Notes: generated by a model not told the origin, from the sequence alone. Counted from the first letter of the stretch, positions 1-16,181 are shown. The stretch is 64,000 nt of DNA from Alphaproteobacteria bacterium (GCA_017444525.1 JAFSWL010000022.1:73879-137878), one strand, 5' to 3'. Made by a program: numbers and translations.

Positions 1-105
1 CGATAGCAAGTTATGCCACCCGCGATAAATGTATATCCGGCAACAACACGGTTATATGGACTTTTCGGTAAAAACCGATAATATCATACATCTCTCAGAG
101 AACAT

Positions 106-1071
106 TTAATTTTCCGAAGCGTCGAACAATGGACGACCTTGTCTCATACGCGTCATCTGCATTTCAATAGTAGTGGCCAAATTAATTTTACCGGTTTTGA
201 TAATATTACGTGTTTGATCGCCTTGAGTGGTAATCGGATTAGCAAAAAGGAATTGCACCACCGGACGCTTTTTGCCGGCTCCGATGAGTTGTTGGTGTAT
301 AACACCCAAAATACCGCGTGAAAGTAAGTCGAAGGCTAATTCCTCACTCATTTCTCCAGCGGAAGCATGCTTAACTATGGCATCAATAGCATCGGCAACG
401 TTATTAGCGTGAATTGTAGATAACACTAAGTGTCCGGAAGTGGCAGCACGCAAACATTCGCTGGCGGCTGCCGGAGTACGAATCTCTCCAACCAGAATGT
501 AACGTGGACGCGAGCGCAATGCCGAACGCAACGAAGCCCCCCAATCATCGTTTATTGGCTGAGTTTGTTTACACATTCCGATAGAACCGTTCATAGCTCT
601 ATATTCGCCGTCAAGCGGCATTTCGAACGGGTCTTCAATGGTATATGCGAATCCCCCGTTGCGGATTAAATATTCACGCAATAAACTAGATACTGTTGTG
701 GTTTTACCGGAACCTGTAGCCCCGCCAAGCAAAATAAGCCCCGAAGCATTACCAAGTGTCGCCAAATAATTAATCAATGCCGGAGGATAGCCCAAAGCCG
801 TCAAATCCGGCACCTTTTTCGGCATTTTACGCATACAAAACAAAACACCGTACATTGAAACGGTACGTTCCACACGGAAGAAAAAGTCTTCATATGTTAT
901 GGAATAGCTGGAACGGCCGGTAAATGAGCGTTCCAATAAATCATAAAAAACGTCAAAATCATCCGGCATTATTTGTTTTAAGCCGTTTTCCGTGCGCGAA
1001 TCCGGAACAAACACTTGTTTATCAGGTGTTATGTATATATCTGGATAAAATTCATCATTAATGCGTGCCAT
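106..1071 (-). CDS. PilT/DotB-family secretion or pilus-retraction ATPase, AAA+
   Basis: It has a Walker A motif GATGSGKTTT and a PilT-like C-terminal block GEIRTPAAASECLRAATSGHLVLSTIHANN. I moved the start to the ATG at 1071 (MARINDEF...), which has a GGAG Shine-Dalgarno upstream; the track ORF extends 39 codons further with no RBS. Confidence 0.7.
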   Translation of the reverse strand: MARINDEFYPDIYITPDKQVFVPDSRTENGLKQIMPDDFDVFYDLLERSFTGRSSYSITYEDFFFRVERTVSMYGVLFCMRKMPKKVPDLTALGYPPALINYLATLGNASGLILLGGATGSGKTTTVSSLLREYLIRNGGFAYTIEDPFEMPLDGEYRAMNGSIGMCKQTQPINDDWGASLRSALRSRPRYILVGEIRTPAAASECLRAATSGHLVLSTIHANNVADAIDAIVKHASAGEMSEELAFDLLSRGILGVIHQQLIGAGKKRPVVQFLFANPITTQGDQTRNIIKTGKINLATTIEMQMTRMRQGRPLFDASEN

Positions 1072-1152
1072 TTTTTTCTCCTTGTCTGCTGTGCAGTATA
1101 GATTGTATTTTGTAAAATATCCATTAAAAAGCAAAAAATTAATATTCTTATT

Positions 1153-1181
1153 GTCAGCGCATAAAAAATATTTTATACTGT
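1153..1181 (+). promoter_or_regulatory. sigma70-like promoter upstream of the ABC transporter gene
   Basis: The sequence is TTGTCA, a 17-nt spacer, then TATACT, about 45 nt upstream of the ATG at 1225. Confidence 0.35.
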
Positions 1182-1224
1182 CCGTCATAATTAAACGGAA
1201 TCAAAAAACAGGGTAAAAAACAGG

Positions 1225-3180
1225 ATGAAAGCCATACGCTTTTTTGCAGTCTTTATCATCGGTTTGTTGCTGATTGCAATATTGAGTCGCTCTTTATGGT
1301 ATGTTGCACCGATTAAGTTTCCGCTCGAATTCGTTATTGATGCGGTAAAGTTTGATATTTTATGCATTATCGTCGGTTTTTATGTTTTATTCTGGGGAAT
1401 CGTTGCTATCATTTATTTGGCACGACACAAAATTTATAATAAATTATCCGCACAAAAATCCTTACATAGCTATATGTTTATATTGCCCTATGCCAAACCG
1501 TATTGGATCCGCACCTTATTGGCCATTGTTATTACCATACCTATTGGCACTATGGACGCAGTTATTGCTTGGTCTCTCAAACCTTTTATGGATGTAGTTT
1601 TGATAGAAAAACAAACCGGTTGGACAATGTATATTCCGCTGATGATTGTGGTTTTCAGCATTTTGCAGGCAGTTTTCACTTATATTGCAACTTATCTGAA
1701 TACTTGGGTAGGAAGCCGAATATCTTTGGATTTAAAGCGCAAGCTGTTCAATACTTTACTGCATCGCGATGCTACTTTTTTTGATAAAAACAATTCCGGA
1801 TTTGTCTTGATGCGTTTCAATCAAGATGCCGAATCGGCATGCGGCGGCCTCTTAAACAGTATGCGTCTGTTTTCAACGCGTTTCTTTTCTTCATTATCGC
1901 TCTTGGTTGTGCTTTTTTATAACTCATGGAAATTAGCTATTGTAGCAACTATCGTGTTATTCGGAGCATTGATGCCGCTGACAAAAGTCAAAAAGAGGCT
2001 CAATGCTGTGGTTTCCAAAGATACGGATTTGATGGCAAAAATTTATCGCGATTACAATGAAATTTTCAGTGGTAATCGTATCGTTACCGCCTATAATTTA
2101 TTTGATTTTTGTAAGAAGAAATTTACAAACAATATAAATAACGCCTTTGATATGACTCTACAGATGAAGAAGAAAACCGGAATAATTTCTCCGTTGATGC
2201 ACGTCATATCTTCATTCGGCATCGCCTTTGTTATATGGTTCGGTAGTTATTTAATAGTTTCTCATCAAATTACCGTCGGTAATTTTGCCTCGTTTGTTAC
2301 CTCACTTGTAATGTTGTACAATCCGCTCAAATCCATCGGTAACAATGCAAGTAATATCGCTGTTTCTTTAATGGCTGTAGACCGTGTGTCAGATCAATTG
2401 AGCGCTGTCGATAAAATCAAAAACAAACCTGATGCCGTGGAGCTGAAAAAATGCCGCGGTGAAATCAGTTACAAAGATGTTTCTTTTGCCTACGTTAAAA
2501 ATAAACCGGTTTTACGCCATATTAATCTTGAGATAAAATCCGGAGAAACCATTGCATTGGTAGGTAATTCCGGCGGAGGAAAATCGACCATTTCCGTATT
2601 GTTGCCGCGTTTTTATGATGTTACCGCAGGTTCCATAACAATCGATAATATTGATATACGTAATATCCGATTAACTGATTTGCGTGATAATATCTCTATT
2701 GTATTTCAGGATAATTTCCTATTCGGCGGCACAATCAGAGAAAATATTTTACTTGGTCGTACCGATGTATCGGAAGAACGATTGAATGAGGTGATTAAGG
2801 CGGCATGTCTGGACGAGTTTATCGACTCTTTGGATAATGGTTTGGATACCGAAATCGGGGAGCGCGGTGTTCTAGTTTCGGGCGGACAAAAGCAGCGAAT
2901 CGCCATCGCGCGTGCGTTTATAAAAAATGCGCCGATTCTGATTTTGGATGAGGCTACGTCGGCGCTTGATAACAAATCGGAAAAAATCGTGCAGCAAGCA
3001 ATTGATAATTTGATGAAAAACCGCACCGTGTTGGTTATAGCACACAGGCTTTCTACGGTTCGCAATGCCGATTGTATTGCCGTGATTAACAACGGAGAAA
3101 TTGTTGAACGCGGCACTCATGAAGAGCTGTTGGCCAAGGGCGGAGAATATGCCGCACTTTATAAAACACAATTGAGCTAA
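1225..3180 (+). CDS. MsbA-like ABC exporter with fused permease and ATPase domains, and an N-terminal membrane extension
   Basis: Hydrophobic segments are followed by a Walker A motif GNSGGGKST, an ABC signature LSGGQKQRIAIARA and a Walker B motif [12 protein letters not shown]. Confidence 0.8.
   Translation: MKAIRFFAVFIIGLLLIAILSRSLWYVAPIKFPLEFVIDAVKFDILCIIVGFYVLFWGIVAIIYLARHKIYNKLSAQKSLHSYMFILPYAKPYWIRTLLAIVITIPIGTMDAVIAWSLKPFMDVVLIEKQTGWTMYIPLMIVVFSILQAVFTYIATYLNTWVGSRISLDLKRKLFNTLLHRDATFFDKNNSGFVLMRFNQDAESACGGLLNSMRLFSTRFFSSLSLLVVLFYNSWKLAIVATIVLFGALMPLTKVKKRLNAVVSKDTDLMAKIYRDYNEIFSGNRIVTAYNLFDFCKKKFTNNINNAFDMTLQMKKKTGIISPLMHVISSFGIAFVIWFGSYLIVSHQITVGNFASFVTSLVMLYNPLKSIGNNASNIAVSLMAVDRVSDQLSAVDKIKNKPDAVELKKCRGEISYKDVSFAYVKNKPVLRHINLEIKSGETIALVGNSGGGKSTISVLLPRFYDVTAGSITIDNIDIRNIRLTDLRDNISIVFQDNFLFGGTIRENILLGRTDVSEERLNEVIKAACLDEFIDSLDNGLDTEIGERGVLVSGGQKQRIAIARAFIKNAPILILDEATSALDNKSEKIVQQAIDNLMKNRTVLVIAHRLSTVRNADCIAVINNGEIVERGTHEELLAKGGEYAALYKTQLS
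2921..3180 (+). repeat. direct repeat copy 1: the 3' end of the ABC gene, duplicated at 6905-7165
   Basis: About 260 bp are near-identical to 6905-7165. The central roughly 140 bp are identical and the 3' tail has diverged. Confidence 0.8.
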
Positions 3181-3273
3181 AATTCACAATTTTTATATAT
3201 AAATAATAACTTGATTCGACGATTTATTTTGCCTTTTTTAGTTAAGACAAAATAAAAATTTTTCGGATATATA

Positions 3274-3302
3274 TTGACAAATTGGATAAAATATTTTATA
3301 CT
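3274..3302 (+). promoter_or_regulatory. near-consensus sigma70 promoter
   Basis: The sequence is TTGACA, a 17-nt spacer, then TATACT, lying upstream of the truncated surface-protein paralog. Confidence 0.4.
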
Positions 3303-3335
3303 GACCTTGTCATTAACAAATATGGAGGCAAAAAA

Positions 3336-3638
3336 ATGAGTGATGACCCCCACCCCTGTATGAAGGTGACGAGCCACATTCGCAATCTTATTAAAATGTC
3401 CGCCACGGCGGTTCATATTCAGGAACAAAACGTTTCGCTGATTTTTTCTGATGATAACAATTCATCAAATTTAATTCTGAATGCGGAAAATATTGCCGCG
3501 AAAAATCTTAATCATAATCAAAAACTTTCTTTCGATGATTTAAGACCGTATCTGCTTGCGCCTAAAAATTCGGTGCAACACTTGCGCTTGGTTATCAATA
3601 AATACGGTGTTTGTACTCGTAGATTTTCGAACAATTGA
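3336..3638 (+). pseudogene. truncated N-terminal paralog of the two downstream surface-protein genes
   Basis: It shares the RBS and the N-terminus MSDDPHPC with the gene at 3739. It aligns over about 90 aa (NAENIAA versus GAENISA, and FDDLRPYL versus YNDLRPNL) and then terminates. Confidence 0.5.
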
Positions 3639-3738
3639 AAATCGCGACAAATCGGCAATGCTCCGATAACCACAGATTACTGATTAAGATAGGAATTATG
3701 TTTTTGGATTAACATTATCATTCACATAGGAGGAAAAA

Positions 3739-4734
3739 ATGAGTGATGACCCCCACCCCTGTACGCAGGATAATAATTTTGACTTATGCAAACTTATATT
3801 GAAAACTTTGCTTTTAACCGCGACTACCGCGGCTTTTGCTCAGGAACAAAAAGTTCCGACAATTAAATCCGATGTCCGTTCGGACAGACTGACTTTGACG
3901 CTCGGCGCGGAAAATATCTCCGCCTTGACCATCGAACAAGATAAAACCGTATTCTACAACGATTTAAGACCGAATCTGACGGCGCGTGCCTGCAACAGGC
4001 GCGGCGATTACGCACAGCTTAAGGCGATGGAAGTCTTAATTCTGGAAGATAAAAACTTTACCCCGATTACTTCTAAATTTATGCTGGAACTCGGTAAACT
4101 GACCGGCAACGGCGGCACCGTTATTTTCAAGGCCGGCCGCGAAAAAACCGAAGGTGCGACCCTGTTTGACCACGCCCTCGAATATTATGCCGACTCCCGC
4201 GATGCCTATCAATTTGCCAACAGCGCGGAAAGATTGGTTTTCGGATATCAGAAAAATAATAAATTCATCGAGCTAGGTATTATCGGCAAAAACGGCGACG
4301 GATTTTTCGTTATACCGAATCCGAAACACGCAGATTTTTGGGCTAAAAGCGGTTTAACCCTCTTGGGAAAGAGCGGTGTTAGACTCAATGTAACCGGAGC
4401 AATGCGCTTCGGCAGCAAACACAAGCATTTACTGAGTTCCATCGGCATATCCGAGCGTTCCGGTTTCGGTATCAGAATGTTGGGTAATTATGATTTTGCC
4501 GAAAAGAAAGGCAATCTCGGATTGCGTGTATGGAAAGATTTTATGCACGGCTGGAAAATGATTACCGAAGCAGTATTCGATCAAAACCGCGATTTATATA
4601 TTCGCAACGGAGCTAACAAAGGCAGAGTGCAATTTTCCATAGAATACGGTAAACCGAAAAACCGGTCGAATTACTTTAATTTTACCGTTGCAGCCAATCT
4701 TGCAAGATCGCACATCGTGAGCGGCACCAAATAA
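3739..4734 (+). CDS. putative secreted or outer-membrane protein, paralog A, unknown family
   Basis: A strong RBS AGGAGG precedes it. A charged N-terminal extension of about 25 aa is followed by a hydrophobic region LLLTATTAAFA and then QEQ. It is about 45% identical to the next gene. Confidence 0.6.
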   Translation: MSDDPHPCTQDNNFDLCKLILKTLLLTATTAAFAQEQKVPTIKSDVRSDRLTLTLGAENISALTIEQDKTVFYNDLRPNLTARACNRRGDYAQLKAMEVLILEDKNFTPITSKFMLELGKLTGNGGTVIFKAGREKTEGATLFDHALEYYADSRDAYQFANSAERLVFGYQKNNKFIELGIIGKNGDGFFVIPNPKHADFWAKSGLTLLGKSGVRLNVTGAMRFGSKHKHLLSSIGISERSGFGIRMLGNYDFAEKKGNLGLRVWKDFMHGWKMITEAVFDQNRDLYIRNGANKGRVQFSIEYGKPKNRSNYFNFTVAANLARSHIVSGTK

Positions 4735-4765
4735 CTTATGCAATTTTATCAATATAGGAAAAAAA

Positions 4766-5758
4766 ATGACTGATACTTTAAACTTAAAAAACAATGATTT
4801 TCAACTTTTCAACGTTCGTAACTTTGTTATCAACACTCTGTTGCTGACGGCTACGGCGGCGGTTGCTCAGGAACAACAGATTACGCAAACAAATTCCGAT
4901 GATACCAAGGATCGGATGACCTTAGTTCTTGACGCAGCTAATATTGCTGGTTTGACTGTGGAAGAAGGAAAAACCACTTTCTATAATGACTTTGCTCCGT
5001 CATTTTTGGCGAGAGCCGAAAACAAACGCGGTGATTATGCCCAACTTTCCGGTCAAGAAGGCGTTATCTACAATAACGATTCATTCAAATCCTTAACCAT
5101 TAAGTTTATGGTTGAACTGGGTAAACAACTCGGCAATGGCGGCGTGATTACCTTCAAAACCGGTCGTGCCGCTACCGAAGCTGGAGCCGTATTTGATAAT
5201 CCGCTCAGTTATTATGCTGATGCTTATGATATCGGTCGTTTCGGTAATGCCAGCGACCGTATCGTTTTCGGCTACGAAAAAGGTGGACAATTTATTGAGC
5301 TCGGTATGATAGGCAGTGCCGGCGACGGCTTCTACGTTATACCGAATCCGAACAAATCAGATTTTTGGGCTAAGTGCGGCTTGACCCTCTTGGAAAAAAG
5401 CGGTGTCAGACTGGATATGACCGCCGCGGTGCGTACCGGTAGCAAACATCGCCAGTTGCTCAGTTCCATCGGTATTCATAGTCGTGCTTACGGCGGTACG
5501 ATTTTCGGTCATTACGATGCCAAACAGCATTGCGGCAACTTGGGCGCACGCGCTTGGTACGACTTGCGCCGCGGCTGGAAAACCATTGCCGAATCGGTAA
5601 TCACACAAAATCGTGATTTGTCGGTACGTGCCGGTGTCGGCAAAGGCGGAATGCAGTTTTCGCTGGAAATTTCCAAACCGCGCGAGCAACCGGTTGCCGT
5701 AAACTTTACGGTGGCCAGCAATTTGGCGCGTTCTCATACTATATGCGGTCACAAATAA
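4766..5758 (+). CDS. putative secreted or outer-membrane protein, paralog B
   Basis: It has the same architecture and is colinear with 3739-4734. Shared motifs include GDYAQL, FYVIPNP..DFWAK.GLTLL and NFTVA.NLARSH. Confidence 0.6.
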   Translation: MTDTLNLKNNDFQLFNVRNFVINTLLLTATAAVAQEQQITQTNSDDTKDRMTLVLDAANIAGLTVEEGKTTFYNDFAPSFLARAENKRGDYAQLSGQEGVIYNNDSFKSLTIKFMVELGKQLGNGGVITFKTGRAATEAGAVFDNPLSYYADAYDIGRFGNASDRIVFGYEKGGQFIELGMIGSAGDGFYVIPNPNKSDFWAKCGLTLLEKSGVRLDMTAAVRTGSKHRQLLSSIGIHSRAYGGTIFGHYDAKQHCGNLGARAWYDLRRGWKTIAESVITQNRDLSVRAGVGKGGMQFSLEISKPREQPVAVNFTVASNLARSHTICGHK

Positions 5759-5777
5759 TAATTTAAGGGGTAAAATC

Positions 5778-6041
5778 ATGTTAGAAAATTTGAAAAACAA
5801 ACTCATTCAAAGTGCAATCGTCGTCAGCGGTTTATTTACCGTCGGTACGGCACTGTCAAGCTGTGATGAGCTTAAATCACCGCAGCAAAAAGGTAAGGAA
5901 TTGGTGCAAAAGCGCAACCCGACAGCCGACTCAATTAAGGCCGCACCATATAAAATATGTCGGTACGAGAGGAATATGCCGAGCGCCGTACAGATTCTGC
6001 CAAAATCAAACTGTTACGAGAAAAGTATCAGTTTCGGCTGA
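5778..6041 (+). CDS. lipoprotein signal peptide and N-terminal segment; possibly the 5' part of a frameshifted gene continuing in 5957-6877
   Basis: An RBS AAGGGG precedes it and it has a lipobox LSSC. Its frame overlaps the next ORF by 85 nt. Confidence 0.35.
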   Translation: MLENLKNKLIQSAIVVSGLFTVGTALSSCDELKSPQQKGKELVQKRNPTADSIKAAPYKICRYERNMPSAVQILPKSNCYEKSISFG

Positions 6042-6877
6042 CGCAATATCAGCAAGCTCTCGACAGCTTGAAACAAATGCAACAGACGGTTGATGCCGAG
6101 TTATTGCAGGCGGCAGCTTGCGGCGACTTGGATGGCGTTAAAACCGCACTTGAAAACGGTGCAAATGTCAACGCTCAAGGCGAAAAATCCGGCAACACCG
6201 CCTTGATGAACGCAATTGAGCATTGTTCCGACACGCAAAAAGCCTTTGATGTTGCCATGTATTTGTTGGGCGAGTCGAGCATTCGTACCCAAATTGAAAA
6301 CAAACGCGGTATCAGCGCCGTAGATTTACTTAAAGCCAAACTCAACAGCGGTGAGGCCGAATGGGAAACGATTGCCCGCAAATTCGGCGAGCCGACGACC
6401 GACAATTCGCGCCAACGCGGCAATTCCGAAGTGGATAAATTTGCGGCTGAAGTTAAGCAAACTTATAAACAACTGGTCGAAAGCTACGGCAAGGAAATGC
6501 GTGCCGCTTTGGGTTACGTTTACATGGGTAAAGATGTTCACCAAAACGAAAAAGGCGAGCAAATTTACTTTATCGGCGGCTATGGTGACGAATATCCTTG
6601 CGGAGTTGAAATTACCACCAATGAAGACGGCAGCAAAGACACCACGGCGGTCAATCCTTATGCCGTGCATCCGACGGTTAAGGCAAAACTATTGTTGCGC
6701 GAGCCGCATGAAAAGTATTTGGTACCGGAAGAAATCGGCACGCAAGTCGTGCATAAAAGTCGGCGCAAAGGTTACGGTATCGGCCATCGCTATCACAAAA
6801 CGGTTATCGATACATACACCGTAACCACAACCCGCGACGGCCAGCAACACTGGGTAAAAACTCGTGAAGGCCGGTAA
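5957..6877 (+). CDS. ankyrin-repeat protein with a coiled-coil N-terminus and a C-terminal domain of unknown function
   Basis: It contains ANK-like repeats LLQAAACGDLDGVKTALENGANVNAQ...GNTALMNAIEH. The frame opens only at 5951, immediately after a TAA stop. Confidence 0.6.
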   Translation: MSVREEYAERRTDSAKIKLLREKYQFRLTQYQQALDSLKQMQQTVDAELLQAAACGDLDGVKTALENGANVNAQGEKSGNTALMNAIEHCSDTQKAFDVAMYLLGESSIRTQIENKRGISAVDLLKAKLNSGEAEWETIARKFGEPTTDNSRQRGNSEVDKFAAEVKQTYKQLVESYGKEMRAALGYVYMGKDVHQNEKGEQIYFIGGYGDEYPCGVEITTNEDGSKDTTAVNPYAVHPTVKAKLLLREPHEKYLVPEEIGTQVVHKSRRKGYGIGHRYHKTVIDTYTVTTTRDGQQHWVKTREGR

Positions 6878-6904
6878 TTATTTTGTTGCTTATTAACACA
6901 CCCT

Positions 6905-7165
6905 AAAAAAAATGCACCGATTCTGATTTTGGACGAGGCTACGTCGGCGCTTGATAACAAATCGGAAAAAATCGTGCAGCAAGCAATTGATAATTTGATG
7001 AAAAACCGCACCGTGTTGGTTATAGCACACAGGCTTTCTACAGTTCGCAATGCCGATTGTATTGCCGTGATTAACAACGGAGAAATTGTTGAGCGCGGTA
7101 CCCATGAGGAACTACTCGCCAAAGACGGCGAATATGCCGCGCTTTACAAAACTCAAATAGCTTAA
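6905..7165 (+). pseudogene. orphan duplicate of the ABC exporter 3' end, forming direct repeat copy 2
   Basis: It translates to [40 protein letters not shown]..., matching the C-terminus of the 1225-3180 product. It has no N-terminal part and no RBS. Confidence 0.65.
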
Positions 7166-7495
7166 TCGGTGTTTATATTGATATCCGCTAATTTTTACTA
7201 GACACTTTTAAATATCTGTCTTATGATGTTGACAGACAGGGAGGCCTGTTCGGGGTGTGGTAGCCTCTGCAATAGAAAGTATATAAAGACGTAAGGTTGC
7301 ACGTCTACCGGTCATGTATATATGATATGTGGCTGGAAGGCGGCAAAATACGCCGTTTTAAAACTACATATATATGCTCGAGCGATATGTGCCGGTTATG
7401 GCTAATATGTCGCACAATCCTATTGCATTGTTACCAACTTCCAGTCGCTTTTTTAAGCGGCTTTTTGTTTGTGGCTTGAACTAAAGGAAGTTGTG

Positions 7496-10447
7496 ATGAA
7501 AAAAAATAACAAAAAGATAAATTCAAATATAATCACCGTTCAAAACGCGGAAGGCGATGCTAATACAAAAGCGGAAATTGTGGTACAAAATCAGATAAAT
7601 TACACACCGAAAGTATCGGTGATTATTCCGGTGTATAATGTGGAACAATATCTGCGAGAGTGTCTGGACAGTGTGGTTAATCAGACACTGCGTGAAATAG
7701 AAATTATCTGCGTTGATGACGGCTCAACGGATTCTTCTTTGGATATTTTAAAAGAGTATGCTGCAAAAGACAAGCGCGTTACCGTTATCAAACAAGAAAA
7801 CTTGCATGCCGGAGTCGCACGCAACGCCGGTTTAGCAGTGGCTAAGGGAGAATATATTCATTTTTTGGATTCTGATGATTGGATTGATTTAGATACATAT
7901 CAACAACTGTATAACCTTATTCAGGAGAAACAAGCTGATTTTGTAAAATTTAAATCTTATACCTATGATAATGAAGAGCGCAAAATAGTTAGTTCCTATT
8001 TTACGAATATGAGCGCAGTTAATGACAATCATTTCGGAAGATTTAATGATTGGAAAACGGAATATCAGACATTAGTAAATGTTTCTGATGCCCCTTGGTC
8101 TGGCATATATAATCGTGATTTTTTGATTTCAAATCATATTTTATTTGATAATTTGTTATGCGCAAATGATACGTCTTTTTTCTATAGATGTCTAGTTTCT
8201 GCAAAAAAGATATATCTGGAGCAAAGACGTTTTGTTTATTATCGAATAAATAACTCTGCATCTTTAATAAATATCAGAGCATATAATTTTGATTGTCAAA
8301 TCAAGCAGTTTTTCATCATCCAAAATATTGTTAAAGATGTTCCAGATAAAATAAAAGAAGTATTTCGCAAACATTTAATAAGTGCTTTATTTTACAGATA
8401 TTCTCAATATAAAAATAATACGGAATTAGCTCCCAAAGCAAAACGAGAAATATATAGACAAATTAAAAGATTTATTTATTATGTATCTGAGATAGAAATT
8501 CCAGCGAAATATTTACCTTATTACTATGAAATACTGGAAAGACCTTTAATTTCTGTTATTATTCCTGTCTATAATGCAGAAAATTATTTGCACGAATGCT
8601 TAAACAGCGTTGTTAACCAGACTTTAAGAGAAATTGAAATCATTTGCGTTGATGACGGTTCTTCCGATTCATCTTTGAAAATATTGCAAAAATATAAAGA
8701 TATAGATTCTCGTATTAAAATAATTTCACAAAAAAATAAAGGCTCCGCATCTGCTCGAAATAATGGTATGAAAAACGCCTTAGGATGTTATATTGGATTT
8801 ATAGATAGTGATGATGTTGTTTCTGCAAATTATTTTGAAGCACTTTTAAATTGTGCTTTATCCAAAAGAGCAGACATCGCAGCAACATCCAACGTTCAAC
8901 TATTTAATACTCATGGTTTTCAATCCTTAAAAAACATGGGATTTCAAGGTAAAAAAATCATAGAATCGGTTGAAGATAAAGGCAATATTATTATAACCAC
9001 TGGGGTATCTTGTAATAAGATATATCGCAAAGGATTTCTAGATACTGCCGATATAAAGTGCTTAGAGATAAAGAATGCTGCAGAAGATAATTACTTTACT
9101 GATACAGCTATAATCGCTTCAAATAAAATAACCGTAGTAGATAATGCTATCTATTATTATAGAATTAATCAGACATCACAAACTCAAGTGCTTAAAAATA
9201 GAACACAATTTTTAATGACTAAAATTTATCAAATGATAGATAATTACATTATAAATCAGCATTTAACTCAAACAGAAAAAGACCAATGGTTAGAAATTAT
9301 AAACAAACGAAAAGTTAAAGACTTTATTTACTTTAAAAATACTATGCAATCCATATATATAAAAGATTTTCGAAAACATTTTATTTCAGTGTTTCCAAAT
9401 TTGAAAAAATATGTAGCAGAAATTATAGTTTCTCTCACTTCATATCCGGCGCGAATAAAGACCGTGCATCAAACAATTTATTCCTTGTTGACACAGAGTG
9501 TCAAAGCCGATAAGGTTATTTTATGGCTTGCAGAAGAACAATTCCCGAATAAAGAGAAGGATTTACCACAAGAATTGTTGTCTTTGACCAAAATAGGCTT
9601 AGAAATTGATTGGTATCATGATATAAAAAGTTATAAAAAATTAATTCCGTCGCTTAAAAAATATCCTGACGCAATCATTGTAACGGCTGATGATGATTTG
9701 CTTTATGATAAAAATTGGTTAGAAAAATTACTCCTTTCATATTGTAAAACAACAAATGCAATACATTGTCATCGCGCACATATGATGAACTTTGAGAAAG
9801 GAGTAGTATTGCCATATCGGCAATGGACGCAAAACATCAAACAAAACAAAACTCTTTATAATACGTTCCAGACCGGAGTTGGCGGTGTCCTTTATCCACC
9901 GCACAGTTTGTATAAAGATGTTTTAGATGAAGAAAAATTTATGCGCTTATGCCCGCAAGCCGATGATATATGGTTTTGGGCAATGGCTGTAAAAAACAAT
10001 ACACCTATTAAAGTGGTGGAAAATAATATTACAAAGCTTAACTATGTTGACGGCACACAAAAAACTGCTTTATGGCATAGCAATGTTATTGAGGGACAAA
10101 ATGATATACAACTGCAAAATGTATTAAAAGAATATCCCGAAATATTAGATAAACTGGATAAAACCATATCACCGACACAACCGAAAAATATTGAACAACC
10201 GCATAAAGCTGTTGTTTTATCAGCACATGTTCAGTCCGAACCACTTATTGCGCCGCAATTGAAAAAATATGTTTTATCGTACAATTTGTTCGGTTTTTTA
10301 CCACTTTTTACATACAGACGTCGGGGAGGAAAAGAGGTTTGGAAAATTTTAAGTATTCCATTCTGGAAAGTGCGTAAAGTGGAAAACGGCACAATCAAAA
10401 AATACTATTTTCTCAATTTACCACTGCTGAAAATATCCGATATGTAG
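7496..10447 (+). CDS. multidomain glycosyltransferase: two tandem GT2 (GT-A) domains plus a third transferase-like domain
   Basis: I moved the start to the ATG at 7496, which has an AAGGAAG RBS. Two paralogous blocks VSVIIPVYN..CL.SVVNQTLREIEIICVDDGS occur at aa 47 and aa 355. A third domain carries SLTSYPARI and ADDD. Confidence 0.75.
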   Translation: MKKNNKKINSNIITVQNAEGDANTKAEIVVQNQINYTPKVSVIIPVYNVEQYLRECLDSVVNQTLREIEIICVDDGSTDSSLDILKEYAAKDKRVTVIKQENLHAGVARNAGLAVAKGEYIHFLDSDDWIDLDTYQQLYNLIQEKQADFVKFKSYTYDNEERKIVSSYFTNMSAVNDNHFGRFNDWKTEYQTLVNVSDAPWSGIYNRDFLISNHILFDNLLCANDTSFFYRCLVSAKKIYLEQRRFVYYRINNSASLINIRAYNFDCQIKQFFIIQNIVKDVPDKIKEVFRKHLISALFYRYSQYKNNTELAPKAKREIYRQIKRFIYYVSEIEIPAKYLPYYYEILERPLISVIIPVYNAENYLHECLNSVVNQTLREIEIICVDDGSSDSSLKILQKYKDIDSRIKIISQKNKGSASARNNGMKNALGCYIGFIDSDDVVSANYFEALLNCALSKRADIAATSNVQLFNTHGFQSLKNMGFQGKKIIESVEDKGNIIITTGVSCNKIYRKGFLDTADIKCLEIKNAAEDNYFTDTAIIASNKITVVDNAIYYYRINQTSQTQVLKNRTQFLMTKIYQMIDNYIINQHLTQTEKDQWLEIINKRKVKDFIYFKNTMQSIYIKDFRKHFISVFPNLKKYVAEIIVSLTSYPARIKTVHQTIYSLLTQSVKADKVILWLAEEQFPNKEKDLPQELLSLTKIGLEIDWYHDIKSYKKLIPSLKKYPDAIIVTADDDLLYDKNWLEKLLLSYCKTTNAIHCHRAHMMNFEKGVVLPYRQWTQNIKQNKTLYNTFQTGVGGVLYPPHSLYKDVLDEEKFMRLCPQADDIWFWAMAVKNNTPIKVVENNITKLNYVDGTQKTALWHSNVIEGQNDIQLQNVLKEYPEILDKLDKTISPTQPKNIEQPHKAVVLSAHVQSEPLIAPQLKKYVLSYNLFGFLPLFTYRRRGGKEVWKILSIPFWKVRKVENGTIKKYYFLNLPLLKISDM

Positions 10448-10479
10448 CAACTTTATGACGGCTCAAAATAAAGGAGAAG

Positions 10480-10905
10480 TTTTATGAAATTTCATAAAAA
10501 TATGATTTTGATAAATTAACCATGTGTAGATTGTTTAGGCTGGTGATAAACCATAATGCTTCCCAAAAAGAAAGAACAACAATCTATAAATGTTTGGGAA
10601 TTCAAGTGTGGAAAATATATGAAACCACCGGAGAATCGGATAATATTGTAATTAAAACATATTACTTTTTGGGAATACCTGTTACCCAAATCACCGATGT
10701 TTCGGAATATTATTGTAATGAATACGATGAGCTAGATGAGATTTAGGTGCTATTGTCGCTTTATACTTACAAAAAGCGCTGTGGAAATCAGGTGTGGAAG
10801 ATTTTTGGGTTGCCAATATGGCGGATTTGTAAGATTTCTGATTCCGTAGCCATCAAATACTATTTATTTGACTTGCCGCTTTTTACAATTGAACAACAAG
10901 GCTGT
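10480..10905 (+). pseudogene. two decayed tandem copies of the glycosyltransferase 3'-terminal module
   Basis: The translations IYKCLGIQVWKIYE..IVIKTYYFLGIPVTQI and LYTYKKRCGNQVWKIFGLPIWRICKISDSVAIKYYLFDLPLFTI both match the GT C-terminus LFTYRRRGGKEVWKILSIPFWKV..IKKYYFLNLPLLKI. Confidence 0.5.
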
Positions 10906-10999
10906 AAATTTTAACATTATTAGAAAGTCATAAGTTCGTCACTTACAAAAAAGCACGTCATCATTGTTGATAACGTGCTTTTTGCTAATAAAGAGCCCT

Positions 11000-11980
11000 T
11001 TATTTTTTCAGCGTCAGTTTGCCGTTGTCCATTATGGCTCTGCCGCCGAGCGGAATGGTGATAATCGGTGTTGTATGACCGTAATCGACATTTGCCAGCA
11101 CCGGAATATTTTTCAGTTCCGGCTTATTGTTGATAATAAACTCCAGCATTTCACGCGACATTTTCGAGCCTTTTTGAAAGCGTCCGATAACCAAACCTTT
11201 AACGTTTTTAAAATCCGGTTGATGGCACAAGGCCTGCAAGTCGCGGTCAAACACCACATCACTGGTGTCGCAGGCATCTTCAATCATCAAAATCGTATCT
11301 TTAGGAAATTCCGGTCGATATGACGTGCCGAGCAGCAAATTAAAGGTGCATAAATTACCGCCGACAATCGTACCCTCGGCCTTGCCGTTGTGAATATTCC
11401 AAAAGCCTTCATTTTTGATAAAATCGCGTTTTTCTTGATCCAAAAACCACAAATCATCGCTCCATTCGACAGACGGACTTACTTCCACCGGCGAATCGGC
11501 AAACAGCATTTTTTGCAAATAGTCAAGTGTGTATTCGCAACCTTTTTTCATACCGATTGAGCTGAAATGCGGCCCGTAATAGGTTTCTAATCCGGTGCGG
11601 GCGGAAATAGCGTCCAGCACTGCCGTAATATCCGAAAAGCCGCAAATAATCTTCGGGTTAGCTTTAATCACATCATAATCCAAATGCGACAAAATCTGAT
11701 TGCTGTTAAAGCCGCCGATAACCGTAAAAATCGCCTTAACCGACCTATCCTTAAAGGCGGTCATAATATCCGCGGCACGCTGTTCAATCGAGCCGCAGCC
11801 TTGCATATTCCAATTTTCGTCGGTGGTATTCGGGGCAAATTCGACTGTCAGTCCCATATCATTAAAGCGTTTGACGGCAATTTCCCGACAATCCTGTCCG
11901 ATAAGTTTAAGCCCGCGTGACGGAGCAATTATCATTATTTTATCACCTTTTTGCAACTTCTCCGGAATAATTTTTTGCAT
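11000..11980 (-). CDS. ldcA: LD-carboxypeptidase (muramoyltetrapeptide carboxypeptidase, peptidase S66)
   Basis: The N-terminus reads LQKGDKIMIIAPS, there is an S66-like core, and an AGGAGG RBS sits inside the 3' end of the upstream queH gene. Confidence 0.7.
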   Translation of the reverse strand: MQKIIPEKLQKGDKIMIIAPSRGLKLIGQDCREIAVKRFNDMGLTVEFAPNTTDENWNMQGCGSIEQRAADIMTAFKDRSVKAIFTVIGGFNSNQILSHLDYDVIKANPKIICGFSDITAVLDAISARTGLETYYGPHFSSIGMKKGCEYTLDYLQKMLFADSPVEVSPSVEWSDDLWFLDQEKRDFIKNEGFWNIHNGKAEGTIVGGNLCTFNLLLGTSYRPEFPKDTILMIEDACDTSDVVFDRDLQALCHQPDFKNVKGLVIGRFQKGSKMSREMLEFIINNKPELKNIPVLANVDYGHTTPIITIPLGGRAIMDNGKLTLKK

Positions 11981-12625: not shown

Positions 12626-12775
12626 GCAGGCAAGAGATTGTCTGCGGAGTGTCGAAGCTCCCAAGAAGAAAATAGCTCCTCATTGGTGGGGAGCCGGCGG
12701 AATATATTGAATACGCCGGACTGACTTCTTGCAGTTTCGAACTCCCGACCACTTTTTTGAGTGGTCTTTTTGTTT
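12626..12775 (+). ncRNA. structured small RNA, family copy A1
   Basis: A -10 TATAAT lies at 12617-12622. A 5' hairpin is followed by closing helix P1, variable helix P2, hairpin 2 and hairpin 3 with the invariant loop GAATATATTGAATA. An intrinsic terminator GACCAC-loop-GTGGTC plus a T-run ends it. Confidence 0.55.
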
Positions 12776-12854: not shown

Positions 12855-13003
12855 GCAGGCAAGAGATTGTCTGCGGAGTGTCGTAGCTCCTTAAGAGAAA
12901 ATAACTCCTCTATTATGGGGAGCTGATGAATATATTGAATAAATCAGACTGTTCTCTTACAGTTACGAACTCCCCACCTTAAAGAAATTTAGGGTGGTTT
13001 TTT
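12855..13003 (+). ncRNA. structured small RNA, family copy A2
   Basis: The upstream promoter is TTGCTT, a 16-nt spacer, then TAATAT at 12830-12848. The architecture matches A1, with compensatory changes in P1, P2 and the hairpin 3 stem. The terminator is CCACC-loop-GGTGG plus a T-run. Confidence 0.55.
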
Positions 13004-13029: not shown

Positions 13030-13254
13030 ATGAGTTCACATAATTTGCTTAGTAAAAAAGTTTTAACAGATATTTGTTCGCGGCTTAAACAATTGCGTCT
13101 TGAGCGTCAACTCAGCATAGAGGATTTGCAAGCCGCCACCCACCTTAAACTCAAAACATTAAAACGTATGGAAAATGGTAAGTGCTTACCTTTCAGATAT
13201 TATCGGCGTTTACTCAATTTTTACGGCAAAGAAATACGAATCGTGATTGAATAA
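13030..13254 (+). CDS. 74-aa XRE-family helix-turn-helix protein
   Basis: An AAAGGAG RBS precedes it. The HTH_XRE-like segment is LRLERQLSIEDLQAATHLKLKTLKRMENGK. It has a paralog at 16590-16814. Confidence 0.6.
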   Translation: MSSHNLLSKKVLTDICSRLKQLRLERQLSIEDLQAATHLKLKTLKRMENGKCLPFRYYRRLLNFYGKEIRIVIE

Positions 13255-13260: not shown

Positions 13261-16080
13261 TTATTTCAACTTGCCTTTCAGATATTTGCCGGTGAAGCTT
13301 TTTTTATTTTTCGCCACTTCCTCCGGTGTGCCTTGGGCTACAATCGTACCGCCGCCATCGCCGCCTTCCGGTCCGACATCAACAATATAATCCGCCATTT
13401 TTATCACATCGAGATTATGTTCAATCACCACTACGGTATTACCCTGTTCTACCAACATTTCCAAAACGTCAAGCAAATGTTGAATATCTTCAAAATGCAA
13501 ACCGGTTGTCGGCTCGTCTAAAATATACAAAGTTTTACCGGTGGCTTTTTTGCTAAGTTCTTTAGAGAGTTTGATGCGTTGCGCCTCGCCTCCGGAAAGT
13601 GTCGGTGCCGGCTGTCCGAGTTTAACATAACCCAAACCCACACGGCGCAATAAATCCAACCGCCGTTTTATTGCCGGAATATTCTCAAAAAACTTGTAAG
13701 CGTCGTCAATTGTCATATCCAAAACATCGGCAATCGACTTATCCTTAAATTTGATTTCAAGAGTTTCGCGGTTGTAGCGGGTACCATGGCAGGCATCGCA
13801 CGGAACATACACGTCCGGCAAAAAGTTCATCTCGATTTTCATTACGCCGTCACCTTTGCAGGCCTCGCAACGACCGCCGGCAACATTAAACGAAAAATAG
13901 CCCGAAGTATAGCCGCGCGCTTTAGCCTCCGGCAATTCGGCAAACCAATCGCGGATATTGGTAAACACACCGGTATAAGTTGCCGGATTAGAACGCGGCG
14001 TGCGCCCTATCGGCGATTGGTCAATATCAATCACCTTATCGATATTTTCCAAGCCGATGAGTTTATCATACGGCCCCGGCGGCACACGAGAGCCGTTCAT
14101 TTCTTTATCCACCGCCTTAAACAGCGTTTCTAAAATCAGCGAAGATTTACCGCTGCCGGAAATACCGGTAACACAAGTAAACGTGCCAAGCGGTATTTTT
14201 AAATCAACATTTTTCAAATTGTTGGTGCGCGCACCTTTGAGCTCCAAAAATTTACCGTTTCCCTTGCGGCGAATCGGCGGCAAGGCAATTTCTTTTTCAC
14301 CATTCAAATATTTGGCAGTGAGGCTGTTCGGATTATGCAAAACCTCGTCAACCGTGCCGGCGGCGGTAACTTCCCCGCCCAAAGTGCCGGCAAGCGGTCC
14401 CATATCCACCAGATAATCGGCGGCGCGCATGGCATCTTCATCATGTTCCACTACAATCACGGTATTGCCGATATCACGCAGACGGCGCAGACTGTCGAGA
14501 AGTTTATCATTATCGCGCTGGTGTAAACCGATGGAAGGCTCATCCAAAACGTACATCACGCCGGTTAAACCCGTACCGATTTGTGAAGCCAAGCGAATCC
14601 GTTGAGCCTCACCGCCGGAAAGAGTTCCCGACTGGCGCGACAAAGTCAGATAATCAAGCCCGACATTATTCAAAAAGCTTAATCTTTCGCGGATTTCTTT
14701 TAATATTTTGCGGGCAATTTCCTGCTTTTGCGGAGTTAATGTTGCCTCAACATTATCAAACCACTCCAACGCTTGTTTAATTGACATATTGCTGGCATCA
14801 ATAATATCTAAACCGGCAATTTTAACCGCCAAAGCCTCCTGTTTAAGCCGTTTGCCGTGGCAAACTTCACAAGGAGCGGCCGATTGATAATGCGAAAGCT
14901 CATCACGCACCGCTGCCGAATCGGTTTCCACAAAACGGCGTTCTAAATTAGGAATCACTCCTTCAAACGGTTTATCCGATACCCATTTGGAATAAACCAT
15001 CGGCACGCAGCGATTACCTGAGCCGTAGAGTATTGTTTCTTGTGCATACTCTGGCAAGTCTTTCCACGGAGTTTTGTTGGATATATCAAGATATTCACAT
15101 AAAGAATTTAAGGTCTGGCGATAAAAAATCGAATGACTGCTGACCGACCACGGGGCAATCGCTCCGCCTGCCAGACTCAGATTTTCATTCGGCACCACCA
15201 ACTCCGGATCCATATATAAACTGGCGCCCAAACCACCGCAATGCGGACAAGCCCCCTGCGGATTGTTGAACGAAAACAACCGCGGTTCAATCTCCTCGAT
15301 CGTAAATCCCGATACCGGACAGGCAAATTTAGAAGAAAACGTAGTGCGTGATTTATCACTCATATTTTCGACATACAATAAGCCGTCACTCAATTTTAAG
15401 GCGGTTTCCACCGATTGCGCCACGCGGGTTTGAATCCCCTCTTTTATCACAATGCGGTCAATTACCACTTCAATATTATGTTTAATATTTTTGTTCAAAT
15501 TCGGCAATTCTTCAATGTTATAAATCTCGCCATCTATATCTAAGCGCTGAAAGCCTTTTTTCTGCAATTCGGCAAATTCTTTTTTAAACTCGCCTTTTTT
15601 ACCTCGAGCAATCGGCGAAAGTAAAATAAGTTTTGAGCCTTGCGGGTATTCCAAAATTTTATCAACCATTTGGGTTAAAGACTGAGCTTCAATCGGCAAT
15701 CCTGTTGCCGGCGAATACGGAGTGCCGGCACGCGCCCACAGCAAACGCATGTAGTCATATATTTCCGTTATAGTACCGACCGTTGAACGCGGATTATGAG
15801 AAACAGTTTTCTGTTCAATTGAAATTGCCGGAGATAGACCCTCTATCGAATCGACATCAGGCTTATTCATCAAATCTAAAAATTGTCGGGCATAAACCGA
15901 AAGACTTTCAACATACCGACGTTGTCCTTCCGCATATATGGTATCAAATGCCAAAGAAGACTTACCCGAACCGGATAAGCCGGTAATAACCGTCAGCTTG
16001 TTTTTCGGAATATTAACATTCACGTTTTTCAAGTTGTGCTGGCGTGCGCCTTTGATTTCGATATATTTACTTTCTGCCAT
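13261..16080 (-). CDS. uvrA: excinuclease ABC subunit A
   Basis: It has two ABC ATPase modules ([10 protein letters not shown] and [10 protein letters not shown]) and zinc-finger cysteines. I moved the start to [11 protein letters not shown] at 16080, which has a GGAG RBS. Confidence 0.93.
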
Positions 16081-16181
16081 TTTTTTCTCCGTTGCGATTG
16101 ATATATACCAATTACATGCGTTTCGCAACTGTTTAATAAATAAAACTTGCTTTTTTAAGCAAACTGATTACAATGACTGTT

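What the first reader, a model, noticed from the sequence alone, without database searches (positions are those of the whole stretch)
2921..7165. A roughly 3.7-kb insert bounded by a direct duplication of the 3' end of the msbA-like gene
The last 260 bp or so of the ABC exporter gene (2921-3180) recur at 6905-7165. The central 140 bp or so are identical and the tail has diverged, leaving a 78-codon orphan fragment. Between the copies lie a consensus promoter, a truncated and two intact paralogous surface-protein genes, and a lipoprotein/ankyrin gene. Duplication of a gene 3' end flanking foreign-looking DNA is the signature of site-specific insertion at that 3' end, as with tRNA-end islands. 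The surface-protein paralog genes (3739-5758) look visibly GC-richer than their surroundings. No integrase remains.
Basis: partly seen in the sequence, partly recalled or inferred. Interest (0 to 1): 0.6.

Follow-up and report, generated by a model that had tools for sequence, protein, structure and literature searches.

The report
Recombination scar duplicating msbA's end
The duplicated end of the lipid-exporter gene is real, but it is a scar left when two alternative surface-structure gene modules were stacked by ordinary recombination, not the footprint of an integrase-borne island.

Summary
The repeat is real: window 2919-3180 recurs at 6904-7165 with 22 mismatches, 19 of them in the last 70 bp. 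The organism is an uncultured gut or rumen alphaproteobacterium. In five related lineages the "insert" (small ORF, two porin-like genes, sometimes a lipoprotein-ankyrin gene) follows msbA directly, with no repeat and no glycosyltransferase (GT). In three other lineages msbA is followed by a conserved 330-nt leader and a GT gene. The window holds both modules in tandem. The orphan copy belongs with the leader-GT module. It is 78/78 aa identical to the sister species' MsbA end and continuous with the same leader. The novel joint (about 6903/6904) fuses the terminator A-run downstream of the cassette to an internal msbA site at the microhomology AAAAAA(T)GCGCC. There is no integrase, no remnant and no second case of the duplication in the relatives retrieved (98 loci, window-lineage contigs included). 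The GT gene, not the cassette, is the compositional outlier. One contig is identical in both flanks, lacks the cassette and has a single hybrid msbA end, so the repeats recombine. Best reading: homology-facilitated illegitimate recombination, then gene conversion and repeat-mediated deletion. Which module arrived second is unresolved. Ordinary in kind; modest interest.

The parts
1225..3180 (+). Intact MsbA-like ABC exporter gene (651 aa)
   Evidence: Pfam ABC_membrane + ABC_tran. Best NCBIfam match is TIGR02203 MsbA_lipidA, 521 bits, below its 602-bit cutoff. 95% aa identity to the sister species L003.
2919..3180 (+). Left repeat copy (aL): the 3' end of the intact gene
   Evidence: Positions 2919-3124 are 98.5% identical to L003. 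They are embedded in sequence 17-25% divergent from L003 on both sides (2571-2918 and 3125-3180).
2950..3056 (+). Longest perfectly identical block between the copies (107 bp); crossover interval of the cassette-less variant L102
   Evidence: L102 has aL alleles at 2931 and 2949 and aR alleles from 3057 onward. It has no other mismatch in 1-3056 or 6935-9737.
3181..3335 (+). Spacer holding the near-consensus sigma-70 promoter (3274-3302) of the cassette
   Evidence: Promoter scan 11/12. The spacer is colinear with msbA-cassette genomes from the 'ATTCACA' just after the stop codon onward.
3336..3638 (+). Conserved 100-aa ORF that shares its N-terminus with the porin-like genes
   Evidence: 99-101-aa ORF at the same position in L003, L083, L085, L089, L091 and L101. 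No Pfam or NCBIfam hit.
3739..4734 (+). Porin-like outer-membrane protein paralogue 1 (331 aa)
   Evidence: Signal-peptide-like N-terminus. The AF2 model is low confidence (pLDDT 48) but all-beta with about 18 strands; top Foldseek hits are OmpU, OmpC and FadL. Lineage-restricted family of 34 clusters.
4766..5758 (+). Porin-like paralogue 2 (330 aa)
   Evidence: 53% aa identity to paralogue 1. Same order in all relatives.
5778..6877 (+). Lipoprotein-ankyrin gene, frameshifted (5778-6041 and 5957-6877)
   Evidence: Intact 367-369-aa gene in L003 and L089; 1-nt deletion in the window near 5949. Ank_4 hit.
6878..6915 (+). Novel joint: 5' flank of the cassette's terminator fused to an internal msbA site at an A-run/GCNCC microhomology
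   Evidence: L089 and L003 read ...CCCTAAAAAAAGCGCCATCG...CGGTGGCGTTTTT after the ankyrin stop. The window reads ...CACCCTAAAAAAAATGCACCGATT, which is msbA TTTATAAAAAATGCGCCGATT.
6904..7165 (+). Right repeat copy (aR): orphan msbA 3' end (78-codon ORF 6929-7165)
   Evidence: 78/78 aa identical to the L003 MsbA C-terminus. 6904-7507 is 96% identical to L003's msbA 3' end plus leader.
7166..7495 (+). Conserved non-coding leader 'i' upstream of the GT gene
   Evidence: 84-95% identical in L003, L004 and L108, partly in L015. Promoter-like site 7199-7227; terminator-like hairpin 7443-7462 followed by a T run.
7496..10447 (+). Two-domain family-2 glycosyltransferase (983 aa), low GC
   Evidence: Pfam Glycos_transf_2 x2. 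GC 31.7%, z -2.6. No homologue above 58% identity outside its own cluster.
10448..10999 (+). Post-GT spacer with two small ORFs resembling the GT C-terminal motif, plus a terminator
   Evidence: 79% identical to L004 upstream of ldcA. Motif alignment. Inverted repeat 10943-10988.
11000..11980 (-). ldcA (LD-carboxypeptidase): conserved right boundary of the variable interval
   Evidence: Pfam Peptidase_S66. Convergent neighbour of msbA at 43 bp to 7.8 kb in relatives.

Best explanation
The msbA-ldcA interval is a variable surface-structure locus. In this clade it normally holds one of two modules directly downstream of msbA.
- Cassette module: promoter, 100-aa ORF, two porin-like genes, sometimes a lipoprotein-ankyrin gene.
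- Leader-GT module: a structured 330-nt leader and a glycosyltransferase gene.

The window carries both. I propose three steps.
1. A DNA fragment came from a genome with the msbA-leader-GT layout. It began inside msbA at the position equivalent to 2919 and ran through the leader and GT gene towards ldcA. It entered a genome with the msbA-cassette-ldcA layout by homology-facilitated illegitimate recombination. The right end was anchored by homology at ldcA. The left end was joined at the 12-13-nt microhomology AAAAAA(T)GCGCC, shared by msbA and the A-run/stem of the cassette's terminator. The msbA 3' end travelled along as a passenger and became the orphan copy. msbA itself stayed intact.
2. 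Gene conversion from the orphan overwrote 2919-3124 of the intact gene. This made the core of the repeat nearly identical.
3. RecA-type recombination between the repeats deletes the cassette in part of the population, giving contig L102.

Shown: the repeat, the two alternative layouts, the joint and its microhomology, the absence of a recombinase, and the isogenic cassette-less variant. Inferred: the direction of the event, the gene conversion, and the enzymology.
For: Layouts.
- msbA-cassette-ldcA with no repeat and no GT occurs in L083, L085/86, L089, L091 and L101. The window's left junction is colinear with them.
- msbA-leader-GT occurs in L004, L108/109 and L003.

The orphan belongs with the GT side. 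It is 78/78 aa identical to L003's MsbA end, and 6904-7507 is 96% identical to L003's msbA end plus leader.

The joint. The cassette's terminator is cut in its A-run and fused to msbA at the microhomology.

No mobile machinery.
- Pfam on the ORFs and on the minus-strand frames finds none. The neighbouring genes include none.
- No match to phage or plasmid collections.
- Among the 98 retrieved loci with an msbA 3' end, only window-lineage contigs carry the duplication.

The two copies are alleles, not decaying duplicates. Of 22 differences, 19 lie in the last 70 bp, most are synonymous, and only 3 amino acids change.

The window-versus-L003 divergence profile along msbA is 5% (1225-2570), 18% (2571-2918), 1.5% (2919-3124) and 25% (3125-3180). 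The drop begins within a few nucleotides of the orphan's left end.

L102 has 0 mismatches to the window in 1-3056 and 6935-9737, no cassette and one hybrid msbA end. It keeps the window-type 2571-2918, so it is a deletion derivative.

Composition. The GT gene is the GC outlier; the cassette resembles ldcA, uvrA and tyrS.

Precedent for this kind of mechanism is described in PMC5361080.
Against: - The direction is not settled. No msbA-cassette-ldcA genome of the same species was found, and no donor carrying this leader-GT module.
- The cassette's porin-like genes are closer to those of distant lineages (87-90% to L083/L101) than to the sister's (78-81%). The cassette has therefore itself been exchanged horizontally, which fits the rival explanation equally well.
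- Three single differences remain inside the supposedly converted tract (2931, 2949, 3057).
- A cluster of 5 differences at 7093-7114 is unique to the orphan and unexplained.
- The cassette-less variant rests on one 10.4-kb contig from one sample, whose contig ends carry adapter sequence.
Confidence: 0.5

Rival explanations
1. Same kind of event, opposite direction ('3'-end displacement'). A genome with msbA-leader-GT received a block from a cassette-type relative, about 2571-6903: the msbA NBD-coding part with a new tail, plus the spacer and cassette. The left end was anchored by homology in the conserved NBD-coding region. The right end was joined illegitimately to msbA at 2919, or the block integrated as a circle by single crossover. 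The old msbA 3' end with its leader-GT was pushed downstream as an orphan.
For: - One event would account for the whole block 2571-6903 that diverges from the sister L003, with its right edge at the illegitimate joint.
- The orphan and leader are the L003-like, apparently native, sequence.
- The cassette alleles are phylogenetically incongruent with the core genes.
- It is the same logic as orphan 3' ends in rhs and T6SS arrays.
Against: - The block is not uniform in origin. Only the two porin-like genes are close to a sampled donor clade. Positions 2571-2918, the tail and the 100-aa ORF are at background distance from every lineage.
- The sister L003 switches to the shared msbA core at 2913-2921, the same place as the orphan's left end. 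That is easiest to explain if L003's ancestor had the cassette layout and received leader-GT from a stacked donor, which implies a cassette-type common ancestor.
- The only same-species msbA-leader-GT contig, L102, carries the window-type 2571-2918 and so looks derived.
Confidence: 0.3
2. A local tandem duplication of [msbA 3' end + cassette] formed at the same microhomology. The second cassette copy was then replaced by a leader-GT module through double homologous recombination, with arms in the orphan msbA end and in ldcA.
For: The joint (cassette end | msbA 2919) is exactly what a tandem duplication of that segment would create. Module replacement between msbA and ldcA clearly happens in this clade.
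Against: It needs two rare steps where one suffices. No intermediate with two cassette copies was seen in any contig.
Confidence: 0.08
3. Integrase-mediated genomic island. A mobile element carrying a copy of the msbA 3' end as its attachment site integrated site-specifically and later lost its integrase.
For: Direct repeats of a gene's 3' end that restore the gene, with an isogenic empty site whose crossover lies inside the repeat.
Against: - No integrase or remnant, and no room for one, since the gaps are at most 155 bp.
- The 'cargo' is the stable neighbour of msbA, without repeats, in five lineages.
- No other occupancy of the site in the 98 retrieved loci.
- The repeat edge is a microhomology join to the cargo's own terminator.
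- No similarity to phages or plasmids.
Confidence: 0.03
4. Assembly artefact: a chimeric join of two strains across the shared msbA 3' end.
For: Metagenomic contig. The cassette-less and cassette-bearing forms co-occur in sample ERZ28018675.
Against: The joint 6903/6904 is a novel sequence that cannot arise from a graph mis-join. It was assembled independently in several samples and by different pipelines (L001, L094, L098). The longest exact repeat (107 bp) is shorter than the k of 141 used.
Confidence: 0.02

Closest known systems
Homology-facilitated illegitimate recombination (HFIR), as described for Acinetobacter, Streptococcus pneumoniae and Pseudomonas stutzeri transformation (references listed in PMC5361080; also PMC3240628)
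   Same: One end is anchored by homology and the other is joined at a short GC-containing microhomology. The result is net insertion of several kb with no recombinase and no target-site specificity.
   Different: Here it is inferred from sequence only. The microhomology is unusually long (12-13 nt with one indel). The competence or conjugation route in this uncultured bacterium is unknown.
C-terminal (3'-end) displacement leaving orphan gene ends in rhs, CDI and T6SS effector-immunity arrays (PMC5361080 and the references it cites)
   Same: An intact gene is followed, further downstream, by an orphan fragment. The orphan retains part of the conserved coding region and is still attached to its former downstream partner genes. 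The retained homology permits later recombination.
   Different: There is no toxin-immunity logic. The gene is an essential-type lipid exporter, and the modules are porin-like proteins and a glycosyltransferase. There is a single orphan rather than an array.
Genomic islands integrated at the 3' end of tRNA, tmRNA or protein genes by tyrosine integrases
   Same: A direct duplication of the gene's 3' end flanks a segment that is absent from an isogenic variant, and the gene stays intact.
   Different: There is no integrase and no recurrence of the site. The flanked segment is the clade's ordinary msbA neighbour, and the repeat edge is an illegitimate join.
Polysaccharide/O-antigen-type variable loci flanked by conserved genes and exchanged by homologous recombination
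   Same: A low-GC glycosyltransferase cassette sits between conserved flanks (msbA, ldcA) and differs between close relatives.
   Different: The module carries a conserved structured leader. In this genome it sits behind a duplicated flank fragment instead of replacing the resident module.

Membership tests
Integrase-mediated island at a gene 3' end | Direct repeats formed by duplication of the target gene's 3' end | tested here: met
   2919-3180 versus 6904-7165, 92-93% identity.
Integrase-mediated island at a gene 3' end | Integrase/recombinase gene, or a remnant, next to one attachment site | tested here: not met
   Pfam on all ORFs and on the minus-strand frames of 3181-7500 finds none. 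The gaps are at most 155 bp. The neighbouring 20 kb holds none.
Integrase-mediated island at a gene 3' end | Cargo foreign to the lineage; the site is reused by other elements in relatives | tested here: not met
   The cargo is msbA's neighbour in five lineages without repeats. Only window-lineage contigs among the 98 retrieved loci show a second msbA end. No phage or plasmid similarity.
Integrase-mediated island at a gene 3' end | Empty site in close relatives | tested here: met
   L102 (isogenic), L003, L004 and L108 have msbA followed directly by leader-GT. L102 appears to be a deletion derivative.
HFIR / 3'-end displacement scar | Orphan 3' fragment in the same orientation, still attached to its original downstream sequence | tested here: met
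   The orphan plus leader is 96% identical and colinear with L003's msbA end plus leader.
HFIR / 3'-end displacement scar | Illegitimate joint at a short microhomology | tested here: met
   AAAAAA(T)GCGCC is shared by the cassette terminator (L089, L003) and msbA 2923-2935.
HFIR / 3'-end displacement scar | The two copies are alleles from different genomes rather than a duplicate decaying in place | tested here: met
   19 of 22 differences are clustered in the tail, mostly synonymous, with 3 aa changes. The orphan matches the sister species' allele.
HFIR / 3'-end displacement scar | Homologous anchor on the other side of the imported DNA; donor and recipient identified | tested here: inconclusive
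   Identity to L003 recovers within about 100 bp inside ldcA, and at 2571 in msbA. No donor or pre-event genome was found.
Repeat-mediated (RecA-type) deletion polymorphism | Isogenic variant lacking the segment, with one hybrid repeat whose crossover lies in the longest identical block | tested here: met
   L102 has 0 mismatches in the flanks and switches allele type between 2949 and 3057. This rests on a single contig.
Repeat-mediated (RecA-type) deletion polymorphism | Reciprocal circular product, or a measured deletion frequency | not testable with these tools
   Needs the raw reads.
Simple tandem duplication | The second copy is followed by the same sequence as the first | tested here: not met
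   After the stop codons the sequences are unrelated: spacer-cassette versus leader-GT.

The most novel reading that the evidence does not exclude
The orphan msbA 3' end may not be a dead scar. It could act as a portable homology arm that lets leader-GT and porin-like modules be stacked, swapped and dropped between lineages without any recombinase. That would be a surface-structure counterpart of rhs/T6SS orphan arrays.

Two hints point this way. The sister species L003 switches to the shared msbA core at the same nucleotide position (2913-2921) as the orphan's left end. The small ORFs after the GT gene look like displaced GT 3' ends.

Separately, the conserved 330-nt leader ahead of the GT gene may be an undescribed riboswitch-like regulator.
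Probability: 0.25. Interest if true: 0.55.

Novelty: new member of a known kind. Interest (0 to 1): 0.3.

Why it matters
A duplicated gene 3' end flanking a gene block need not mean an integrase island. Comparison with relatives can reverse which side looks "inserted". The locus gives a worked example, in an uncultured gut or rumen alphaproteobacterium, of how outer-membrane-protein and glycosyltransferase modules next to the lipid A exporter are shuffled by homologous plus illegitimate recombination. It also shows how the resulting repeat creates a within-population presence/absence polymorphism of two porin-like proteins, which are candidate phage or host-interaction targets. This is useful for annotating islands in MAGs. 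It does not change current understanding.

Tried and rejected
- Integrase remnant search. Pfam on all ORFs and on the three minus-strand frames of 3181-7500: nothing.
- tRNA/tmRNA and Rfam on the whole window: nothing.
- Phage and plasmid collections with the 3.7-kb cassette: no match.
- Metagenome scan with MsbA: the tool returned an error and the cap was consumed. Broader sampling of same-species variants was therefore not possible.
- Exact-protein look-ups of GT983, ank306 and omp330. These were meant to find a pre-event genome (msbA-cassette-ldcA of the same species, or the donor). They found only window-type contigs and L102.
The homologue search shows it on a single contig.
- Search for a close GT homologue that might reveal the donor: nothing above 58% identity.
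- Structure prediction of the porin-like protein gave only a low-confidence model (pLDDT 48). The 'porin-like' label is tentative.
- L102 as the ancestral empty site: rejected. It carries the window-specific 2571-2918 and a hybrid repeat.
- Duplication followed by decay of the orphan: rejected. The differences are mostly synonymous, and the orphan equals the sister species' allele.

Full report
OBSERVATION. The last 262 bp of the MsbA-like ABC exporter gene (window 2919-3180) recur at 6904-7165. Identity is 93% without gaps, or 92.0% over 263 columns with E 8.5e-104. A 60-nt core probe finds exactly these two copies in the window, against none expected by chance.

Similarity starts at the AAAAAATGC motif (2919-2923) and stops at the two stop codons. 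The downstream sequences are unrelated. Only 3 mismatches fall in 2922-3107, and the identical blocks are 107 and 50 bp. The other 19 fall in 3108-3177. They are mostly third-position changes: the two 78-residue ends differ at 3 residues...[15 protein letters not shown] versus ...[15 protein letters not shown].

Between the copies lie:
- a near-consensus promoter at 3274-3302;
- a 100-aa ORF;
- two 330-aa paralogues;
- a lipoprotein-ankyrin gene split by a 1-nt deletion.

The window has no tRNA and no Rfam family.

WHERE IT COMES FROM. The window is part of a 179-kb metagenomic contig. Its relatives are MAGs labelled uncultured gut, rumen or faecal Alphaproteobacteria. The nearest species representative is L003 (RUG10918), with 95% MsbA identity and 93-95% DNA identity in pilT, msbA 5', ldcA and queH.

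THE SURROUNDINGS IN RELATIVES. Five lineages share the order pilT, msbA, 99-101-aa ORF, porin-like gene, porin-like gene, sometimes ankyrin, then ldcA and queH. They are L083, L085/L086, L089, L091 and L101, with MsbA 76-79% identical. None has a glycosyltransferase (GT) or a repeat.

The window's left junction is colinear with theirs. This covers the stop codon, the 'ATTCACA' just after it, the spacer and the promoter. The "insert" is therefore the ordinary neighbour of msbA in this clade. The "truncated" paralogue is a small ORF of conserved length.

Three other lineages (L004, L108/L109 and L003) have msbA followed directly by a conserved leader of about 330 nt (here called i) and a family-2 GT gene. 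L003 has both modules, in the order msbA, i, GT', cassette', ldcA, with a single msbA end.

The distance from msbA to ldcA ranges from 43 bp to 7.8 kb among relatives. One lineage, L015, has a Thoeris defence pair there. This interval is a hotspot for accessory genes.

WHICH COPY BELONGS TO WHAT. The orphan is 78/78 aa identical to L003's MsbA C-terminus. Positions 6904-7507 are 96% identical and colinear with L003's msbA end plus leader. The orphan is therefore the 3' end of an msbA that used to sit in front of a leader-GT module. The intact gene's tail is a different allele, and it is continuous with the cassette-type spacer.

THE NOVEL JOINT. In L089 and L003 the ankyrin stop codon is followed by ...CCCTAAAAAAAGCGCCATCG...CGGTGGCGTTTTT, an intrinsic terminator shared with the convergent ldcA. 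In the window the sequence runs ...CACCCTAAAAAAAA and then continues as msbA, TGCACCGATTCTG... The msbA site itself reads TTTATAAAAAATGCGCCGATT. The join lies in a 12-13-nt imperfect microhomology, AAAAAA(T)GCGCC. That is the hallmark of illegitimate recombination. It also explains why the repeat starts where it does. By inference, the join removes the cassette's terminator, so transcription from the cassette promoter may now read into the orphan and the GT gene.

NO MOBILE MACHINERY.
- The ORFs hit only ABC, ankyrin and GT families.
- The minus-strand frames of 3181-7500 hit nothing.
- Gaps inside the cassette are at most 155 bp.
- The genes called within about 10 kb on either side are pilus/secretion genes, ldcA, queH, HTH regulators, uvrA, tyrS and anmK.
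- The cassette matches no phage or plasmid record.
- Among the 98 retrieved loci with an msbA 3' end, only contigs of the window's own lineage show a second copy.

COMPOSITION. The window is 40.1% GC. The cassette genes are 45-49% GC, z +1.2 to +2.2. They are at the upper end of the range, like the adjacent core genes ldcA, queH, uvrA and tyrS (44-45%). The GT gene is 31.7% GC, z -2.6, the lowest of 45 genes.

A CASSETTE-LESS TWIN. Contig L102 (10.4 kb, sample ERZ28018675) has pilT, msbA, leader and the same GT gene, with no cassette and one msbA end. It has no mismatch to the window in 1-3056 or in 6935-9737. Its msbA end carries the intact-copy alleles at 2931 and 2949 and the orphan alleles from 3057 onward. 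The crossover therefore lies in the 107-bp identical block.

The same sample also yields a cassette contig, L099. L102 keeps the window-specific sequence at 2571-2918, described below. I therefore read it as a deletion derivative, not as the ancestral empty site.

Caveats: this is a single contig, and contig ends in that assembly carry Illumina adapter. The hybrid junction cannot come from a graph mis-join at k = 141.

MOSAIC STRUCTURE OF msbA. Window-versus-L003 identity along msbA is as follows:

| Window positions | Identity to L003 |
|---|---|
| 1225-2570 | 94.6% |
| 2571-2918 | 81.6% |
| 2919-3124 | 98.5% |
| 3125-3180 | 75% |

There are 28 differences in 2751-2916, 3 in 2917-3125 and 14 in 3126-3177. 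Other lineages differ by 14-20% in 2919-3124, so this core is not intrinsically invariant.

The nearly identical core starts within a few nucleotides of the orphan's left end. The simplest reading is gene conversion from the orphan into the intact gene, which cannot extend beyond the shared homology.

L003's msbA also switches to this shared core at 2913-2921. This would follow if L003's leader-GT module was acquired from a donor in which homology to msbA began at the orphan's edge. That step is inference.

HORIZONTAL EXCHANGE OF THE CASSETTE. The window's porin-like genes are 87-90% and 83-85% identical to those of L083/L084 and L101. They are only 78-81% identical to L003's, whose alleles are 89-90% identical to L085's. 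The core genes group window with L003 (94-95%) and L083 with L085 (91%). Cassette alleles therefore move between lineages.

MECHANISM. Two one-step histories give the observed order.
(a) A fragment [msbA from 2919, leader, GT, post-GT, ldcA...] from a leader-GT genome entered a cassette-type genome. It was anchored at ldcA and joined at the microhomology.
(b) A fragment [msbA from about 2571, new tail, cassette] entered a leader-GT genome. It was anchored in the conserved NBD-coding part of msbA and joined to msbA at 2919. This displaced the old 3' end.

Both are homology-facilitated illegitimate recombination. History (b) is the "C-terminal displacement" logic known from rhs and T6SS arrays.

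I prefer (a), at about 0.5 against 0.3, for four reasons. Five of the related lineages have the cassette layout. L003's breakpoint implies a cassette-type ancestor for the window-L003 pair. The window's 2571-2918, tail and 100-aa ORF sit at background distance from all sampled lineages, as expected for native sequence. The only same-species leader-GT contig looks derived. No pre-event genome or donor was found, so the direction remains open.

A tandem duplication followed by module replacement (0.08), an integrase island (0.03) and an assembly artefact (0.02) are less likely. That the feature is a recombinase-independent recombination scar between two alternative modules I hold at about 0.85.

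WHAT THE GENES ARE. The two 330-aa proteins belong to a lineage-restricted family of 34 clusters with no Pfam or NCBIfam match. The AlphaFold model is poor (pLDDT 48) but all-beta with about 18 strands. Its best Foldseek matches are OmpU, OmpC and FadL. "Porin-like outer-membrane protein" is a tentative label. The GT gene has two GT2 domains and no homologue above 58% identity outside its own cluster.

VERDICT. It is wrong on mechanism and on which DNA looks foreign. This is a new instance of a known kind of event and of modest interest. The side observations on the leader RNA and the repeated breakpoint are the more promising leads.

Noticed in passing
window 7166-7495; also L003 11957-12285, L004 3544-3845, L108 7692-7998, L015 13465-13660: Conserved non-coding leader upstream of GT genes (of an unknown 227-aa ORF in L015). 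It has a promoter-like site at 7199-7227. A long-range helix pairs GGGGUGUGGUAGC with GUUACCAACUUCC, and a terminator hairpin at 7443-7470 sits just before the start codon. Seven predicted pairs show compensatory changes among 5 lineages. No Rfam match. Candidate riboswitch-like or attenuator RNA.
   Followed up: partly
window 10522-10746 and 10747-10914, compared with GT C-terminus 10290-10447: Two small ORFs after the GT gene repeat the GT's C-terminal motif of about 50 aa (…GxxVWKI…KYYxxxLPL…). One is 73% aa identical to sequence before ldcA in L004. They may be displaced 3' ends of earlier GT genes, the same process as the msbA orphan.
   Followed up: partly
window 3331-3366 and 3734-3769: The 100-aa ORF and the first porin-like gene share a nearly identical stretch of 30-36 nt (ribosome-binding site plus MSDDPHPC...). 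It is conserved in all related lineages although the rest of the genes diverges by about 22%. This points to gene conversion or a regulatory element.
   Followed up: no
window 5778-6877 (frameshift near 5949): The lipoprotein-ankyrin gene is split by a 1-nt deletion relative to L003 and L089. The 306-aa call recurs in all 12 contigs of this lineage, so the gene is probably decaying.
   Followed up: yes
window 7093-7114: Five differences within 22 bp are unique to the orphan copy (and L102), against both the intact copy and L003. They sit just upstream of the point (3126) where the intact copy diverges from L003. Unexplained; possibly a mismatch-repair patch at a recombination junction.
   Followed up: partly
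L003 msbA 11347-11694 (equivalent to window 2571-2918) and cassette 15553-19195: L003's msbA segment 2571-2918 (86.5-87% identity) and its porin-like genes (89-90% to L085) are both closer to the L083/L085/L101 clade than its other genes are. L003 switches to the window-type msbA core at 2913-2921, the position of the window orphan's left end.
   Followed up: partly
L015 11784-13119: A Thoeris defence pair (ThsB TIR, ThsA Macro) sits directly downstream of msbA in this relative. This shows that the msbA 3' flank is a general accessory-gene hotspot.
   Followed up: no
window 12626-12750 and 12855-12978; HTH genes at about 13030-13254 and 16590-16814: A 125-bp direct repeat (81% identity) lies downstream of queH. 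Two 74-aa HTH_31 genes flank uvrA. L004 has similar repeats.
   Followed up: no
L099 1-18 and L102 10357-10390: Contig ends in assembly ERZ28018675 are Illumina adapter sequence, so the reads were untrimmed. Contig ends from that assembly should not be read as biological.
   Followed up: yes
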